Source of the DNA: Escherichia phage p000v | Sequence record: NC_055781.1 | DNA length: 64,000 nt | Direction: 5' to 3' (one strand) | Shown: one piece after another, positions 13,647 through 23,521 of the stretch | Position numbering within the stretch: the stretch's first letter is position 1 | Layout: every line of letters starts with the position of its first letter | Program-made: the position numbers and the translations under genes | The notes under the pieces: model-generated | Told to the model about the DNA's origin: nothing | Databases searched by the model: none | What the model saw: the letters and a program-made list of their open reading frames with translations, nothing else

Positions 13647-14732
<1,086 letters not shown>

Positions 14733-14733
<1 letters not shown>

Positions 14734-15827: not shown

Positions 15828-16820
15828 ATGTTACCTGTCGTCGGAAAACTTATTTCTCCAAAAGAACTAGCTGAGATTATTCCTTTGTCGGAAGCTTACG
15901 CATCACAAGTGGCTTCTCATCGCGAACAAGTTAATTCGATTATGAACGGTGAAGACCCACGCAAACTTATTGTTGTAGGTCCTTGTTCAATTCATGACCC
16001 TATTGCTGCTGTTGAATACGGCAAACGTCTGGCTGAACTTCAAACTCGTCTTCCTAATGTTCTGTTAGTGATGCGCGTTTATTTTGAAAAGCCTCGAACT
16101 ACCGTAGGTTGGAAAGGTCTTGTAAATGATCCATATCTTGACGGAAGTTTTGATATGAACCACGGTCTTATAGTTGCACGAACATTGTGTCGTAAACTTC
16201 TACGTATGGGACTTCCATTAGCAACTGAAGTATTAGACCCATTCACTATTAAGTATCTTTCTGGTATTTTCTCATGGGTTGCTATTGGCGCACGTACGAC
16301 TGAAAGTCAGACACATCGTGAAATTGCTTCAGGTCTACCGATGTGCGTAGGCTTCAAGAACGCAACCAATGGTTCTATTAAAGTAGCTACAGACGCGATG
16401 TATAGTGCCGCCTGGCCTCATCGGTATATGGGTATGGACGTCGATGGTACTGTAGGCATTGTTGAAGCTGAAGGTAATCAGAATACGCATATCGTATTGC
16501 GTGGCGGGACCAACGGCCCGAACTATCATTCTTCTGATATTCAAGAAGCTTCTAACAAAGCAAGGGCAGTAGGTCTGAATCATTATGTAATGGTTGACTG
16601 TAGCCATGCAAACGCTGATGGGCATTATAGCAATCAAATTGGTATTGGTAAAAATTTAGCAGCTAATGATTTGGTCAAAGGAATTATGATAGAATCGTTC
16701 CTACATGAAGGAAATCAAAAAATTTCTGATAATATGTCCTATGGCGTTTCCGTTACCGATGCGTGCATCAGTTGGGAACAAACTAAAGAGCTGTTAACTT
16801 ATATTAATAAGGTTCAATAA
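15828..16820 (+). CDS. 3-deoxy-D-arabino-heptulosonate-7-phosphate (DAHP) synthase, class I alpha (AroG/AroF/AroH-like)
   Basis: 330 aa; hallmark motifs LIVVGPCSIHD, VMRVYFEKPRTTVGWKGLVNDP, IGARTTESQTHRE, GFKN, RGG..PNY, VDCSHAN align with E. coli AroG/AroH as recalled; N-terminus ~15-25 residues shorter than the E. coli enzymes. Confidence 0.85.
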   Translation: MLPVVGKLISPKELAEIIPLSEAYASQVASHREQVNSIMNGEDPRKLIVVGPCSIHDPIAAVEYGKRLAELQTRLPNVLLVMRVYFEKPRTTVGWKGLVNDPYLDGSFDMNHGLIVARTLCRKLLRMGLPLATEVLDPFTIKYLSGIFSWVAIGARTTESQTHREIASGLPMCVGFKNATNGSIKVATDAMYSAAWPHRYMGMDVDGTVGIVEAEGNQNTHIVLRGGTNGPNYHSSDIQEASNKARAVGLNHYVMVDCSHANADGHYSNQIGIGKNLAANDLVKGIMIESFLHEGNQKISDNMSYGVSVTDACISWEQTKELLTYINKVQ

Positions 16821-20270: not shown

Positions 20271-20489
20271 ATGTTTAAGAAACTGATGCAGAAATTGTTT
20301 GGTACGGAAATGATCGAAGTTACTTATCGTGTAACAGACGTTTTTCCATATTATACAGAAAACCGTTTAGAACCATACGTTACGTCAATTAAAATGCCTA
20401 AAAATGACGGAAATTTATCTATCGAAGACCGTATACCTGGATACGGTCATTGGGCTGATGTTGAAATTATAAGTGTTAAAGATGTCTGA
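20271..20489 (+). CDS. Hypothetical small protein
   Basis: 72-aa ORF. Confidence 0.4.
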   Translation: MFKKLMQKLFGTEMIEVTYRVTDVFPYYTENRLEPYVTSIKMPKNDGNLSIEDRIPGYGHWADVEIISVKDV

Positions 20490-20940
20490 ATTAGAAATAA
20501 GAAGTAATTTCAAGTGGCCGTCATGTGCATTAAGTAACTTTGCTCAATGGCCTTTTGTTATGGATGGTATTCAATTCGGAGGTCTTGAAGGATTTCTCCA
20601 AGGGTGTAAGGTGAAAAATGTTGAACAACAAAGACGTATATTTGGGTTGTCTGGATTGGCTGCACAGCAAGCTGGAAGGTCTTATGCAAGAGCTCAGGAC
20701 CGTGGGACTCTCTTCTGGTTAGGAGTTCCGTTTTCAAGATACTCTGAAGCGTGGAAAGAATTATACACAAATGCATATTTTGAAGCCGCGATCCAAAATA
20801 AGGGGTTTCGTGATGCCTTACAAGCCTCTAAAGGAAAAATTTTGAAGCACAGCATGGCTAGCCACCTAACAAAAGATGATACAATACTAACCGAAACTGA
20901 ATTTGTTGATGTGTTAAACCTATTAAGAGACTCTTTATGA
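20482..20940 (+). CDS. NADAR / YbiA-like (DUF1768) domain protein, candidate ADP-ribose or N-glycoside processing enzyme
   Basis: 152 aa from ATG 20482 (overlaps upstream stop ATGTCTGA); segment LSNFAQWPFVMDGIQFGGLEGFLQGCKV...RRIFGLSGLAAQQAGRS resembles the SNFA-WP--DG...E--FQ--K...AA--GR core of E. coli YbiA as I recall it. Confidence 0.5.
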   Translation: MSELEIRSNFKWPSCALSNFAQWPFVMDGIQFGGLEGFLQGCKVKNVEQQRRIFGLSGLAAQQAGRSYARAQDRGTLFWLGVPFSRYSEAWKELYTNAYFEAAIQNKGFRDALQASKGKILKHSMASHLTKDDTILTETEFVDVLNLLRDSL

Positions 20941-21737
20941 AGCCTACTATTTTGACTGATATTGATGGTGTATGTTTAAGCTGGCAATCTGGACTTCCTT
21001 ATTTTGCCCAAAAATATAATCTTCCATTAGAACATATTTTAAAAATGATTCAGGACGAAAAATTTATTTCTCCTGGTAAACTGTTCAATACCGATGATAA
21101 CCTTGGTAAACAATTAATAGAAAAATATAATCGCTCTGATTTTATTCGTTACTTAGCGCCTTATTCGGATGCTCTTCGAGTTATCAATAAACTAAAAGAA
21201 GACTATAATTTTGTAGCCGTGACGGCGCTAGGCGATTCAATTGATGCTCGATTGAATAGACAATTTAATTTGAATGCTTTGTTCCCAGGCGCTTTCTCTG
21301 AAGTAATGATGTGTGGTCATGATTCTTCAAAAGAACAATTATTCGAACTAGCCAAAACAAAGTATAACGTGATTTGTTACGTTGACGATTTAGCTCATCA
21401 CTGTGACCATGCGGCAGAAATTCTTAATGTACCGATTTATTGGTTGGCTCGTGGTGAACGTGATGATATTCCTCGCACTGCACAACGTGTACACACGTGG
21501 GATGATATTGAATCTCGATTGGTTCCACCTGAGCATAATTCAGATTCAGATCGTGAAGACCTTTTAAAACGATTGGCGGATTTGCTTAAAGAATCTGGTG
21601 CAACAAGTCCAGGTGCATGGCCTAATCAAATTGGCGCTCCGTCGAATCCGTATACTTGGCGAACTCCAGGACCAACCGATATGCAGCCATGGTGGACGAT
21701 TCAAAACTTTCCTTTAGATTCGTCCAAATGGACTTAG
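20937..21737 (+). CDS. HAD-superfamily phosphatase-like protein (possible nucleotidase) with Pro/Trp-rich C-terminal tail
   Basis: 266 aa; HAD motif I ILTDIDGV near N-terminus, later YVDD motif; C-terminal 60 residues low-complexity (GATSPGAWPNQIGAPSNPYTWRTPGP). Confidence 0.5.
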   Translation: MKPTILTDIDGVCLSWQSGLPYFAQKYNLPLEHILKMIQDEKFISPGKLFNTDDNLGKQLIEKYNRSDFIRYLAPYSDALRVINKLKEDYNFVAVTALGDSIDARLNRQFNLNALFPGAFSEVMMCGHDSSKEQLFELAKTKYNVICYVDDLAHHCDHAAEILNVPIYWLARGERDDIPRTAQRVHTWDDIESRLVPPEHNSDSDREDLLKRLADLLKESGATSPGAWPNQIGAPSNPYTWRTPGPTDMQPWWTIQNFPLDSSKWT

Positions 21738-21761
21738 TCTATAAATTGTTAAGGGTTAATT

Positions 21762-22031
21762 ATGTTTGTAGTTCATGATATTACAGATGGCAAAAACACA
21801 ACGCGTGACTACGGTCACGTTAATATGTTCTTTCGAGATTGGCCATTGTTTCGTTCAGTAAAAGACGCAGAAATATTTAAAGAGTGTGTTGAACAAGGGT
21901 TCATCTACATTTCAGAATATTATGTTGAAGGACTCGGTAAATGGATTACCACTTATCAGAAAACGCTGAAATCGCTTCTAGATGAAGTGGCTTATAATAG
22001 AACCGTAACCAAAATCGAGGATATCAAATGA
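21762..22031 (+). CDS. Hypothetical protein (30.1 position)
   Basis: 89-aa ORF immediately upstream of ligase with ATGA overlap. Confidence 0.4.
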   Translation: MFVVHDITDGKNTTRDYGHVNMFFRDWPLFRSVKDAEIFKECVEQGFIYISEYYVEGLGKWITTYQKTLKSLLDEVAYNRTVTKIEDIK

Positions 22032-23521
22032 TTTTAGATATTTTAAACCAAATAGCTGCGATCGGTTCTACTAAAACAAAACAGGAAATCCTTAAGAAAA
22101 ATAAGGACAACAAATTACTTGAACGTGTATATCGTTTAACGTATGCACGTGGCATTCAGTATTATATTAAGAAATGGCCAGGACCAGGTGAAAGGTCTCA
22201 AACGTATGGTCTTCTTGAATTAGATGACATGTTGGATTTTATTGAGTTCACATTGGCCACTCGTAAACTCACTGGTAATGCAGCAATTAAAGAGCTCATG
22301 GGTTATATCGCTGACGGTAAACCTGATGATGTTGAAGTACTACGCCGTGTAATGATGCGCGACCTTGAAGTAGGTGCTTCAGTGTCTATCGCGAATAAGG
22401 TATGGCCTGGACTTATTCAATTGCAACCGCAGATGTTAGCATCTGCATATGACGAGAAATTGATTACTAAAAATATTAAATGGCCTGCATTTGCTCAATT
22501 AAAAGCAGATGGTGCTCGTTGTTTCGCTGAAGTTCGTGATGACGGTGTTCAATTCTTTTCTCGTGCTGGTAATGAATACCATGGTCTTACCCTATTAGCA
22601 GATGAACTAATGGAAATGACTAAAGAAGCCCGTGAAAGACACCCTAATGGGGTTTTAATCGACGGTGAATTGGTTTATCATTCATTTGATATTAAAAAGG
22701 CTGTGAGCTCAGGAAATGACCTGTCGTTCTTATTTGGCGATAATGAAGAATCCGAAGAAGTACAAGTTGCAGACCGTAGCACTTCAAATGGTTTAGCAAA
22801 TAAATCTCTTCAAGGGACTATTTCTCCTAAAGAAGCGGAAGGTATGGTTCTTCAAGCCTGGGACTATGTTCCTTTAGATGAAGTCTATTCTGACGGCAAA
22901 ATTAAAGGTCAGAAATACGATGTTCGTTTTGCTGCTCTTGAAAATATGGCTGAAGGCTTTAAACGAATTGAACCTATCGAAAACCAGATAGTTCGTAATC
23001 TTGACGAAGCTAAAGTGGTTTATAAAAAATATGTTGACCAAGGTCTTGAAGGTATTATCCTTAAAAACCGTGATTCATATTGGGAAAACAAACGCTCTAA
23101 GAACCTAATTAAATTTAAAGAAGTTATTGATATCTCTTTAGAAGTTGTAGGATACTACGAACACTCTAAAGACCCTAACAAATTAGGTGGTGTCGAACTC
23201 GTATCACGTTGTCGTCGTATTACAACCGATTGTGGTTCAGGGTTTAAAGATACAACTCATAAAACAGTTGACGGTGTAAAGGTTCTTATTCCTTTAGATG
23301 AGCGTCATGATTTAGACCGTGAACGATTAATGGCTGAAGCTCGTGAAGGTAAATTGATTGGACGTATTGCTGATTGCGAATGTAATGGTTGGGTTCATTC
23401 TAAAGGCCGTGAAGGTACTGTAGGTATTTTCCTTCCAATTATTAAAGGGTTCCGTTTTGATAAAACAGAAGCGGATTCATTTGAAGACGTATTTGGACCG
23501 TGGTCCCAGACAGGTTTATAA
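22028..23521 (+). CDS. 30: ATP-dependent DNA ligase gp30
   Basis: 497 aa; MILDILNQIAAIGSTKTKQEILKKNKDN...; adenylylation motif LKADGARCF; matches T4 DNA ligase. Confidence 0.95.
   Translation: MILDILNQIAAIGSTKTKQEILKKNKDNKLLERVYRLTYARGIQYYIKKWPGPGERSQTYGLLELDDMLDFIEFTLATRKLTGNAAIKELMGYIADGKPDDVEVLRRVMMRDLEVGASVSIANKVWPGLIQLQPQMLASAYDEKLITKNIKWPAFAQLKADGARCFAEVRDDGVQFFSRAGNEYHGLTLLADELMEMTKEARERHPNGVLIDGELVYHSFDIKKAVSSGNDLSFLFGDNEESEEVQVADRSTSNGLANKSLQGTISPKEAEGMVLQAWDYVPLDEVYSDGKIKGQKYDVRFAALENMAEGFKRIEPIENQIVRNLDEAKVVYKKYVDQGLEGIILKNRDSYWENKRSKNLIKFKEVIDISLEVVGYYEHSKDPNKLGGVELVSRCRRITTDCGSGFKDTTHKTVDGVKVLIPLDERHDLDRERLMAEAREGKLIGRIADCECNGWVHSKGREGTVGIFLPIIKGFRFDKTEADSFEDVFGPWSQTGL

What the first reader, a model, noticed from the sequence alone, without database searches (positions are those of the whole stretch)
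20937..21737. HAD-family phosphatase with an unusual Pro/Trp-rich C-terminal tail, translationally coupled to the NADAR-like gene
A DxDG HAD motif sits at the N-terminus (ILTDIDGV) with a later YVDD motif, typical of 5'(3')-deoxyribonucleotidase-like enzymes. The last ~60 residues are low-complexity (GATSPGAWPNQIGAPSNPYTWRTPGPTDMQPWW) and unlike the catalytic domain. A nucleotidase inside a dNTP-synthesis operon is counter-intuitive, and the start overlaps the stop of the NADAR-like ORF, suggesting the two act together, for example processing ADP-ribose-derived or modified nucleotides.
Basis: partly seen in the sequence, partly recalled or inferred. Interest (0 to 1): 0.45.

Follow-up and report, generated by a model that had tools for sequence, protein, structure and literature searches.

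The report
T4 gene 30.2 phosphatase homologue
This is the RB69-group copy of phage T4 gene 30.2, a dispensable, never-characterised phosphatase that looks most like nucleotide-dephosphorylating enzymes and carries a floppy Pro/Trp-rich tail, and it does not appear to work with the anti-defence gene it overlaps.

Summary
The ORF is real: 20937-21737 (+), 266 aa. It is the ortholog of T4/RB69 gene 30.2 in an RB69-like phage.

**Fold and family.** All four HAD motifs are invariant or nearly so across about 100 homolog clusters (D8/D10, T96, K132, D150/D151). AlphaFold gives a confident HAD core with an alpha-helical C1 cap. The query itself passes no curated family threshold. Its distant relatives pass Pfam NT5C, and a broad family profile hits a putative 5'(3')-deoxyribonucleotidase structure best. 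A nucleotidase-like reading is therefore supported but indirect.

**Tail.** Residues 202-220 form a helix and 221-266 are disordered and Pro/Trp-rich. The tail is missing in about a third of homolog clusters and diverges fast, yet it keeps a shared short motif. Changes in it are mostly synonymous among close relatives.

**Link to the NADAR gene.** The ATGA overlap with the NADAR gene (adfN/30.3, a known anti-DarTG1 enzyme) is genuine, but 46% of same-strand neighbouring ORFs in this window overlap. 30.3 abuts 30.2 in only 18 of 75 related loci. Published T4 transposon sequencing shows 30.2 is dispensable, including under DarTG1. The more conserved neighbour is DNA ligase.

**Verdict.** An ordinary, uncharacterised phage HAD phosphatase with an unexplained tail.

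The parts
20937..21737 (+). Whole ORF: ortholog of T4/RB69 gene 30.2 (266 aa)
   Evidence: RB69 annotates the syntenic gene as 30.2. PHROG 420, E 9.6e-79, unknown function.
20937..21521 (+). Residues 1-195: HAD Rossmann-like core plus cap, the catalytic domain
20958..20969 (+). HAD motif I, D8-I-D10-G11: Asp8 is the nucleophile and Asp10 the general acid/base
   Evidence: D8 and D10 are invariant and G11 is at least 90% conserved. The residue roles are inferred from established HAD chemistry.
20973..21200 (+). Residues 13-88: alpha-helical C1 cap inserted after strand 1, carrying the invariant W16, Y64, N65 and S67 and the nearly invariant F69
   Evidence: Secondary structure of the model shows helices 16-26, 32-40, 46-49, 54-65, 68-72 and 77-86. 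W16 and the 'SGL' aligned with F and 'SGL' of mouse cdN (weak E-values).
21222..21224 (+). HAD motif II, Thr96, at the end of strand 2
   Evidence: At least 90% conserved. The strand spans residues 91-96.
21330..21332 (+). HAD motif III, Lys132
   Evidence: Invariant.
21384..21389 (+). HAD motif IV, Asp150-Asp151 (Mg2+ ligands), the DD of 'YVDD'
   Evidence: At least 90% conserved. They lie at the end of strand 145-150.
21540..21596 (+). Residues 202-220: amphipathic helix that links the core to the tail
   Evidence: Predicted helix 202-220, pLDDT about 91 for residues 211-220. The T4-type model shows the same helix at 205-220.
21597..21734 (+). Residues 221-266: disordered Pro/Trp/Thr-rich tail
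   Evidence: pLDDT is 48-58. The T4-type tail is also disordered. The tail is 20 aa or shorter in 35 of 99 homolog clusters.
21648..21695 (+). Residues 238-253, PYTWRTPGPTDMQPWW: a semi-conserved short linear motif of the form P-x-x-W-[RKV]-x-P-x-x-[DP]-x-x-[RK]-P-[WYF][WYF]
   Evidence: Alignment of tail-bearing homologs from several genera.
21735..21737 (+). TAG stop specific to this window; it is TGG in RB69, NRG-P0074 and L003, and it removes the last 5 residues (WSINC)
20937..20940 (+). ATGA: the start of 30.2 overlaps the stop of 30.3. An AAGAG Shine-Dalgarno-like element lies at 20925-20929.
   Evidence: Read directly from the sequence. Overlaps are common in this window.
20482..20940 (+). 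Neighbour: adfN / gene 30.3 (NADAR, anti-DarTG1), full length here
   Evidence: Pfam PF08010 covers 1-138 of 138 positions, E 4.9e-69. The copy lacks RB69's frameshifting extra T. Function is from PMC11257639.
21762..22031 (+). Neighbour: gene 30.1 (DUF3045)
   Evidence: Pfam PF11243, E 1.4e-26.
22028..23521 (+). Neighbour: gene 30, ATP-dependent DNA ligase, the most conserved neighbour of 30.2
   Evidence: Pfam DNA_ligase_A_M. Ligase is downstream of 30.2 in 70 of 77 loci, and also in the distant loci L075 and L087.

Best explanation
The ORF encodes gp30.2, a phage-restricted, dispensable Mg2+-dependent phosphomonoesterase of the HAD superfamily.

**Structure (shown).** It has a Rossmann-like core with an alpha-helical C1 cap.

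**Mechanism (inferred from HAD chemistry).**
- Asp8 attacks the substrate phosphate to form an aspartyl-phosphate intermediate.
- Asp10 protonates the leaving group and then activates water.
- Thr96 and Lys132 hold the phosphate.
- Asp150/Asp151 hold the Mg2+.
- The cap closes over a small substrate.

**Substrate (inferred).** The nearest recognisable relatives are NT5C-type 5'(3')-deoxyribonucleotidases and other nucleotide phosphatases. Conserved cap aromatics (W16, Y64, F69) sit where those enzymes stack the base. The most likely substrates are therefore (deoxy)nucleoside monophosphates or a closely related small nucleotide. That would make it an accessory enzyme that trims or cleans the nucleotide pool during infection.

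**Tail (inferred).** The C-terminal extension is a helix followed by an intrinsically disordered Pro/Trp-rich tail that carries a short conserved motif. It most likely docks the enzyme to a partner that has not been identified.

**Overlap with adfN.** The 4-base overlap reflects genome compaction and co-transcription, not a shared pathway.
For: **Catalytic residues.** They are invariant or nearly invariant in 91-99 homologs, and D8, D10 and K132 stay invariant in a set reaching 20-30% identity.

**Nucleotidase-like assignment.**
- Foldseek's top PDB hits include deoxyribonucleotidase-like 3bwv, cdN and mdN.
- Among 71 distant family members, NT5C is the most frequent Pfam match (16 members).
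- P0231 (35.6 bits) and P0180 (26.2 bits) exceed NT5C's 24.8-bit cut-off.
- A broad family profile hits 3bwv best (E 4e-5), then yeast SDT1/SSM1 and an XMP phosphatase.
- The closest named viral structural neighbours are mostly annotated as 5'-nucleotidases.

**Distribution.** The gene is found in 1,443 phage records. Only 9 loci, mostly phage-sized contigs, turned up in 185,579 cellular genomes.

**Dispensability.** T4 30.2 tolerated insertions at 72 of 72 TA sites.

**Tail.**
- It is disordered in two independent models.
- It shares a motif across genera.
- Within the genus, tail changes are mostly synonymous: 6 synonymous and 0 non-synonymous against RB69.
Against: - The query itself fails every curated threshold: Pfam HAD_2 at 15.6 bits against 23.8, no NT5C hit, and an NCBIfam match at E 0.089.
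- The family's own invariant R108 and N111 are not matched in 3bwv. This may point to a different substrate.
- No phenotype was seen in the parts of the T4 screen that were read.
- T2 is restricted by a defence triggered by m6-dAMP, although T4-type phages generally carry 30.2. This argues against efficient general clearance of dNMPs.
- No biochemical data exist.
- The tail's partner is unknown, and AlphaFold gives no hint of one.
Confidence: 0.55

Rival explanations
1. One reading: gp30.2 and the NADAR protein (AdfN/gp30.3) form a two-enzyme unit, with the HAD phosphatase processing ADP-ribose-derived products released by AdfN.
For: The two genes share an ATGA start/stop overlap in this window and in 14 related loci. 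AdfN releases ADP-ribose from DNA (PMC11257639).
Against: - In T4 transposon sequencing under DarTG1, 30.3 is lost (log2FC -7.25, q 0) and 30.2 is neutral (log2FC -0.12, p 0.61).
- AdfN alone is reported as necessary and sufficient.
- 30.3 is absent within 6 kb in 40 of 75 loci that carry 30.2, and this held when the search was repeated with a profile.
- RB69 keeps 30.2 although its 30.3 is frameshifted.
- Overlaps are generic in this genome.
Confidence: 0.04
2. A helper for DNA ligase: a DNA-end 3'-phosphatase, or another nick-healing activity, that prepares ends for the adjacent ATP-dependent ligase.
For: - Ligase lies downstream of 30.2 in 70 of 77 loci, within 400 nt in 62, and sometimes overlapping.
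- The adjacency persists in distant loci L075 (about 25% identity) and L087 and in L088.
Against: - The model has a closed C1 cap typical of small-molecule HADs, whereas polynucleotide phosphatases of the PNKP type lack such a cap (established HAD classification).
- The query has no HAD_PNKP match.
- The phage already encodes PseT/PNK at 13834-14733.
- The whole cd-31-rIII-30.x-30-alt block is collinear across these phages, so adjacency may be inherited order only.
- Ligase is essential in T4, but 30.2 is not.
Confidence: 0.08
3. A generic small-metabolite HAD phosphatase acting on non-nucleotide substrates such as sugar phosphates or phosphoglycolate, unconnected to nucleotides.
For: - The only direct Pfam hit is the generic HAD_2.
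- One source names a homolog 'FMN phosphatase YigB'.
Against: - At sequence-profile level the specific matches are nucleotidases: NT5C is the most frequent Pfam match among distant family members (16 of 71), and 3bwv, SDT1 and an XMP phosphatase are the best PDB matches to a broad family profile.
- Viral structural neighbours are mostly annotated as 5'-nucleotidases.
- The invariant aromatic cap residues fit base stacking.
Confidence: 0.2
4. A catalytically irrelevant scaffold: the HAD domain serves only as a folded carrier for the tail, which is the functional part.
For: The tail carries a conserved motif and its changes are mostly synonymous among close relatives. No enzymatic phenotype is known.
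Against: Every catalytic residue is invariant or nearly so across very divergent homologs. About a third of homolog clusters, and most of the 1,064 wider relatives, have no tail at all.
Confidence: 0.03

Closest known systems
NT5C family 5'(3')-deoxyribonucleotidases (mammalian cdN/mdN; S. epidermidis 3bwv; Pfam PF06941)
   Same: - HAD core with a helical C1 cap.
- DxDGV motif I followed by an aromatic residue and 'SGL' (W16-Q-S-G-L here, F-E-S-G-L in mouse cdN).
- Motifs II to IV.
- Best profile-to-PDB match is 3bwv (E 4e-5).
- Distant members of the gp30.2 family pass the NT5C threshold.
   Different: - The query itself does not match PF06941.
- Identity to solved members is 13-18%.
- The family-specific invariant R108 and N111 are not shared with 3bwv.
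- NT5C enzymes have no Pro/Trp-rich disordered tail.
- Activity is untested.
Phage T5 Dmp, deoxynucleoside-5'-monophosphatase (anti-Kongming factor)
   Same: It is a phage early protein with a DxDG(T/V) motif near the N-terminus. It is a proven dNMP phosphatase whose depletion of dAMP blocks a nucleotide-signalling defence (10.1101/2024.12.20.629578). It gives a precedent for what a phage nucleotidase can be for.
   Different: No detectable homology beyond motif I (hhalign probability 1.4%). Dmp has no Pfam match. T5 excretes host nucleosides, whereas T4-type phages recycle host dNMPs.
T4-type PseT polynucleotide kinase/3'-phosphatase (HAD_PNKP domain), encoded in the same window at 13834-14733
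   Different: It acts on polynucleotide 3' ends and is fused to a kinase. gp30.2 has a C1 cap and no HAD_PNKP match.
Yeast SDT1/SSM1 pyrimidine nucleotidase and plant XMP phosphatase (HAD nucleotide phosphatases)
   Same: They are the second tier of sequence-profile matches to the broad family profile (E 2e-4 to 3e-3).
   Different: The matches cover only the motif IV region (about 45 residues). The cap is not aligned.

Membership tests
HAD superfamily | Motif I, DxDx(T/V), at the end of strand 1 | tested here: met
   D8-I-D10-G-V. D8 and D10 are invariant in 91, 99 and 71-sequence alignments. Strand 4-7 precedes the motif.
HAD superfamily | Motif II (S/T), motif III (K) and motif IV (DD or equivalent) | tested here: met
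   T96 is at least 90% conserved, K132 is invariant, and D150/D151 are at least 90% conserved. Each sits at the expected strand end.
HAD superfamily | Rossmann-like alpha/beta core fold | tested here: met
HAD superfamily | Mg2+-dependent phosphoryl transfer through an aspartyl-phosphate intermediate | not testable with these tools
   Requires an enzyme assay with a D8N control.
NT5C / 5'(3')-deoxyribonucleotidase family (PF06941) | Score above the family's curated HMM threshold | tested here: not met
   The query has no NT5C match at E up to 1; only HAD_2 appears, at 15.6 bits. Relatives linked by the family profile do pass: P0231 at 35.6 bits and P0180 at 26.2 bits, against a 24.8-bit cut-off.
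NT5C / 5'(3')-deoxyribonucleotidase family (PF06941) | Helical C1 cap between motifs I and II | tested here: met
   Helices span residues 16-86 between strand 1 and strand 2. TM-scores of 0.60-0.69 (normalised to target length) to 3bwv, cdN and mdN.
NT5C / 5'(3')-deoxyribonucleotidase family (PF06941) | Aromatic cap residues that stack on the nucleobase | tested here: inconclusive
   The invariant W16 and Y64 and the nearly invariant F69 aligned with F, Y and F of mouse cdN, but the alignments have E 0.3-0.77. No ligand-bound model was made.
NT5C / 5'(3')-deoxyribonucleotidase family (PF06941) | dNMP 5'(3')-phosphatase activity | not testable with these tools
   Requires a substrate panel.
   30.3 is within 6 kb upstream in 35 of 75 loci and abuts 30.2 in 18. 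A repeat search with a profile added only one fragment.
   Published T4 transposon-sequencing table: 30.3 has log2FC -7.25 (q 0); 30.2 has log2FC -0.12 (p 0.61).
T5 Dmp family | Detectable sequence homology | tested here: not met
   hhalign probability is 1.4%, with only motif I aligned.
PNKP-type polynucleotide 3'-phosphatase | Match to the HAD_PNKP model and an open active site without a C1 cap | tested here: not met
   The query has no HAD_PNKP hit, whereas the window's PseT scores 197.7 bits. The model has a C1 cap.

The most novel reading that the evidence does not exclude
gp30.2 is a nucleotide-pool 'sanitiser' or counter-defence enzyme, functionally analogous to T5 Dmp but of independent origin. 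Its Trp/Pro-rich motif-bearing tail would tether it to a phage or host complex, such as the ligase/replisome or the dNTP-synthesising enzymes. There it would remove specific (modified or signalling-precursor) deoxynucleoside monophosphates released by host DNA breakdown, before defence systems can sense or use them. Lineages without the tail would do the same untethered.
Probability: 0.12. Interest if true: 0.65.

Novelty: new member of a known kind. Interest (0 to 1): 0.3.

Why it matters
Gene 30.2 is present in about 1,400 sequenced T4-type phages, including therapeutic candidates, yet almost every record calls it hypothetical. Placing it as an NT5C-like HAD phosphatase gives a concrete, cheap biochemical test.

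Phage nucleotidases have recently been shown to defeat nucleotide-based immunity (T5 Dmp against Kongming). A defined substrate for gp30.2 could therefore reveal another layer of nucleotide-pool warfare.

Showing that it is genetically independent of adfN also prevents a plausible but wrong operon-based annotation from spreading.

The fast-evolving tail with a conserved short motif is a tractable handle for finding an interaction partner.

Tried and rejected
- **Direct family assignment.** Pfam, NCBIfam, PHROGs and PADLOC gave only sub-threshold HAD_2, 'unknown function' or nothing.
- **Query and close-family profile against PDB sequences.** Only marginal cdN hits, E 0.3-0.77.
- **Homology to T5 Dmp.** Rejected.
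- **Domain fusions as function hints.** Long relatives P0101, P0144, P0154, P0192, P0081 and P0065 have no informative extra Pfam domains. Only P0016 has one, a fusion to DUF3045/30.1.
- **Promoter and terminator scan.** Promoter-like sites did not exceed the shuffled expectation, 34 found against 30 expected.
- **Literature.** There were no hits for 'gp30.2' and nothing functional on gene 30.2. The T4-relatives review does not mention 30.2, including in its core and quasicore discussion.
- **Second AlphaFold model, T4-type protein with a tail-focused alignment.** This tested whether the tail docks back on the core. It stays disordered, with pLDDT 34-49.
- **afdb50 fold library.** Unavailable.
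- **Link to the KdsA-like ORF near cd, through a Kdo8P phosphatase (KdsC)-like role.** Considered and dropped. This was judged from prior knowledge, not tested: gp30.2 occurs in T4-type phages taken to lack that gene, and KdsC-type HADs are taken to be capless.
Full report
**Identity of the region.** The window is an RB69-like T4-type phage (Mosigvirus). The 1.7 kb around the finding is 98.2% identical to E. coli O157 typing phage 3 and 97.5% identical to RB69. RB69 annotates the syntenic genes as 30.4, 30.3, 30.2, 30.1 and 30, the DNA ligase. The ORF 20937-21737 (+), 266 aa, is therefore the ortholog of T4 gene 30.2. PHROGs places it in phrog_420, 'unknown function', at E 9.6e-79.

**Check of the observation.**
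- ILTDIDGV at residues 5-12.
- YVDD at residues 148-151.
- The Pro/Trp-rich string at residues 221-253.
- An ATGA start/stop overlap with the upstream ORF at 20937-20940.

In alignments of 91-99 homologs, D8, D10 and K132 are invariant. G11, T96, D150 and D151 are at least 90% conserved. D8, D10 and K132 remain invariant when relatives down to 20-30% identity are added.

**Subfamily.** The query itself reaches no curated threshold:
- Pfam HAD_2 scores 15.6 bits against a 23.8-bit cut-off.
- There is no NT5C hit.
- NCBIfam gives only E 0.089.
- PADLOC gives nothing.

A profile search of 1.84 billion representative proteins found 1,064 relatives at E up to 0.001, typically 190-215 aa long. Of 71 sampled distant members, the most frequent Pfam match is NT5C (16 members), followed by the generic Hydrolase and HAD_2 models. 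Two members exceed the NT5C gathering score over the full model length: P0231 at 35.6 bits and P0180 at 26.2 bits, against 24.8.

A profile of this broader set hits the putative 5'(3')-deoxyribonucleotidase 3bwv best in the PDB (E 4e-5). Next come yeast SDT1/SSM1 and an XMP phosphatase. Among predicted viral structures, the named neighbours are mostly '5' nucleotidase' proteins, including the phiW-14 nucleotidase.

The weak direct alignments to mouse cdN place the invariant W16-Q-S-G-L against F-E-S-G-L, and Y64...F69 against Y...F of the cdN cap. That fits base-stacking residues, but the E-values of 0.3-0.77 do not prove it.

I conclude that gp30.2 is a divergent sister of NT5C-type nucleotidases. 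The family's own invariant R108 and N111 are not shared with 3bwv and leave room for a different substrate.

**The tail.**
- Residues 202-220 are a confident helix, and residues 221-266 are predicted disordered with pLDDT about 50.
- A second model, of the T4-type protein built on a tail-focused alignment, also leaves its tail disordered, with pLDDT 34-49. There is no sign that the tail folds back on the enzyme.
- Among 99 homolog clusters, 59 have tails of 40 aa or more and 35 have 20 aa or fewer. Most of the 1,064 wider relatives have none, so the tail is a lineage-specific add-on.
- W and P are each about 2.6-fold enriched in tails relative to cores.
- Tails diverge far faster than cores. 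T4-type phages are about 87% identical over residues 1-198, and the tails are barely alignable.
- Tail-bearing genera nevertheless share an architecture: a helix, then P-x-x-W-[RKV]-x-P-x-x-[DP]-x-x-[RK]-P-[WYF][WYF], which is PYTWRTPGPTDMQPWW here.
- Many lineages add a terminal G-T-G-I-E-Y-L-x-x-Q-P-T motif. The RB69 group lacks it.
- Within the genus, tail substitutions are mostly synonymous: 6 synonymous and 0 non-synonymous against RB69, 3 and 1 against NRG-P0074, and 5 and 3 against L003.

The tail is therefore translated and constrained. It behaves like a disordered region carrying short linear motifs. A docking function is an inference, and no partner was identified.

The window's copy ends at a TAG where three relatives have TGG, so it loses the last five residues, WSINC.

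**Relation to the NADAR gene.** The upstream ORF (20482-20940) matches Pfam Phage_30_3 over its full length. It is adfN, a NADAR-fold DNA ADP-ribosylglycohydrolase shown to be necessary and sufficient for resistance to DarTG1 (PMC11257639). RB69's copy is frameshifted by an extra T. The window lacks that T, so its adfN is intact and overlaps 30.2.

The overlap is not evidence of partnership, for four reasons:
- 32 of 70 same-strand adjacent ORF pairs in the window overlap, 8 of them in the ATGA form.
- In 75 related viral loci with enough upstream sequence, 30.3 is present within 6 kb in 35, abuts 30.2 in 18, and overlaps it by 4 nt in 14. A profile re-search added only one fragment.
- In the published T4 transposon-sequencing tables, 30.2 tolerated insertions at 72 of 72 sites.
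- In the same tables under DarTG1, 30.2 is neutral (log2FC -0.12, p 0.61) while 30.3 is eliminated (log2FC -7.25, q 0).

The proposed joint function is not supported.

**Genomic context.** The window does carry frd, td, nrdA, nrdB, denA, rnlA, pseT and cd upstream on the same strand. However, 30.2 is separated from cd by gp31, rIII and seven small ORFs. It sits two genes before the DNA ligase.

Ligase is the most conserved neighbour:
- It is downstream of 30.2 in 70 of 77 loci, within 400 nt in 62, and sometimes overlapping.
- The adjacency also holds in distant loci L075 and L087 and in L088.

Because the whole cd-31-rIII-30.x-30-alt block is collinear in these phages, I treat this as inherited order rather than proof of a functional link. 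A nick-healing role remains a minor rival. The capped active site and the presence of PseT in the same genome weaken it.

**Distribution.** tblastn finds the catalytic domain in 1,443 phage records, nearly all labelled hypothetical and a few labelled 'haloacid dehalogenase-like hydrolase domain-containing protein'. A pattern-seeded scan of 185,579 cellular genomes returned 9 loci, mostly on phage-sized contigs. One has the 30.3-30.2-ligase arrangement. The family is essentially viral.

**What it may be for.** No paper in the searchable library assigns a function to 30.2.

There is a precedent. T5 Dmp is a dNMP phosphatase that blocks the Kongming defence by depleting dAMP. It shares only motif I with gp30.2.

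T-even phages generate dNMPs, including m6-dAMP, from host DNA, and a defence senses that product. T2 is still restricted by that defence. This argues against gp30.2 clearing dNMPs wholesale.

My best reading, at confidence about 0.55, is an accessory nucleotide monophosphatase that trims or cleans part of the nucleotide pool. Lineages with the tail would place the enzyme near an unknown partner. That it is a catalytically competent HAD phosphatase is far more secure, at about 0.9.

**Verdict.** This is a new, uncharacterised member of a well-known enzyme kind. Its one odd feature, the tail, is unexplained but tractable. Interest is modest.

Noticed in passing
window 20482-20940: The adfN (30.3, NADAR) copy here is full length. 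It lacks the single extra T that frameshifts RB69's copy and makes RB69 sensitive to DarTG1, so this phage is predicted to resist DarTG1.
   Followed up: partly
window 21735-21752: 30.2 ends at a TAG where RB69, NRG-P0074 and L003 have TGG (Trp). The ancestral TAA stop lies 15 nt further on, so this copy lacks the last five residues (WSINC).
   Followed up: yes
window 15828-16820: A 330-aa DAHP_synth_1 family (KdsA-like) ORF whose stop shares one base with the start of cd. It may relate to the unusual sugar modification of RB69-group DNA.
   Followed up: no
77 related viral loci (L003-L080); L075 7170-8288; L087 1254-2618; L088 4524-6119: 30.2 homologs are followed by an ATP-dependent DNA ligase in 70 of 77 loci. 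This includes distant relatives at about 25% identity, and it is much more consistent than the link to 30.3.
   Followed up: partly
protein P0016 (302 aa, metagenomic contig of 1,378 nt): The 30.2 catalytic domain is fused directly to a DUF3045 (gene 30.1) domain in place of the tail. This is either a natural fusion or a deletion or assembly artefact.
   Followed up: partly
L089 3974-5263; L091 3320-5355: Two or three tandem copies of 30.2-like HAD genes lie on large contigs binned as Bdellovibrionales (723 kb) and Rickettsiales (174 kb) genomes.
   Followed up: no
L088 (Flagellimonas marina assembly, 178-kb contig): This contig carries 30.3, 30.2 (48% identity) and a T4-type ligase in T4 order. 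It is probably a T4-like phage genome sitting in a bacterial assembly.
   Followed up: partly
window 20271-20489 (gene 30.4); data from the T4 transposon-sequencing supplement: Under DarTG1, T4 30.4 insertions are also depleted (log2FC -1.79, q 0.014). The likely cause is a polar effect on the overlapping adfN rather than a function of its own.
   Followed up: no
L076 10858-11895: A distant 30.2-like HAD lies about 4 kb from a 345-aa ORF whose sequence, by eye, looks like an NMN adenylyltransferase-Nudix fusion (NAD salvage).
   Followed up: no
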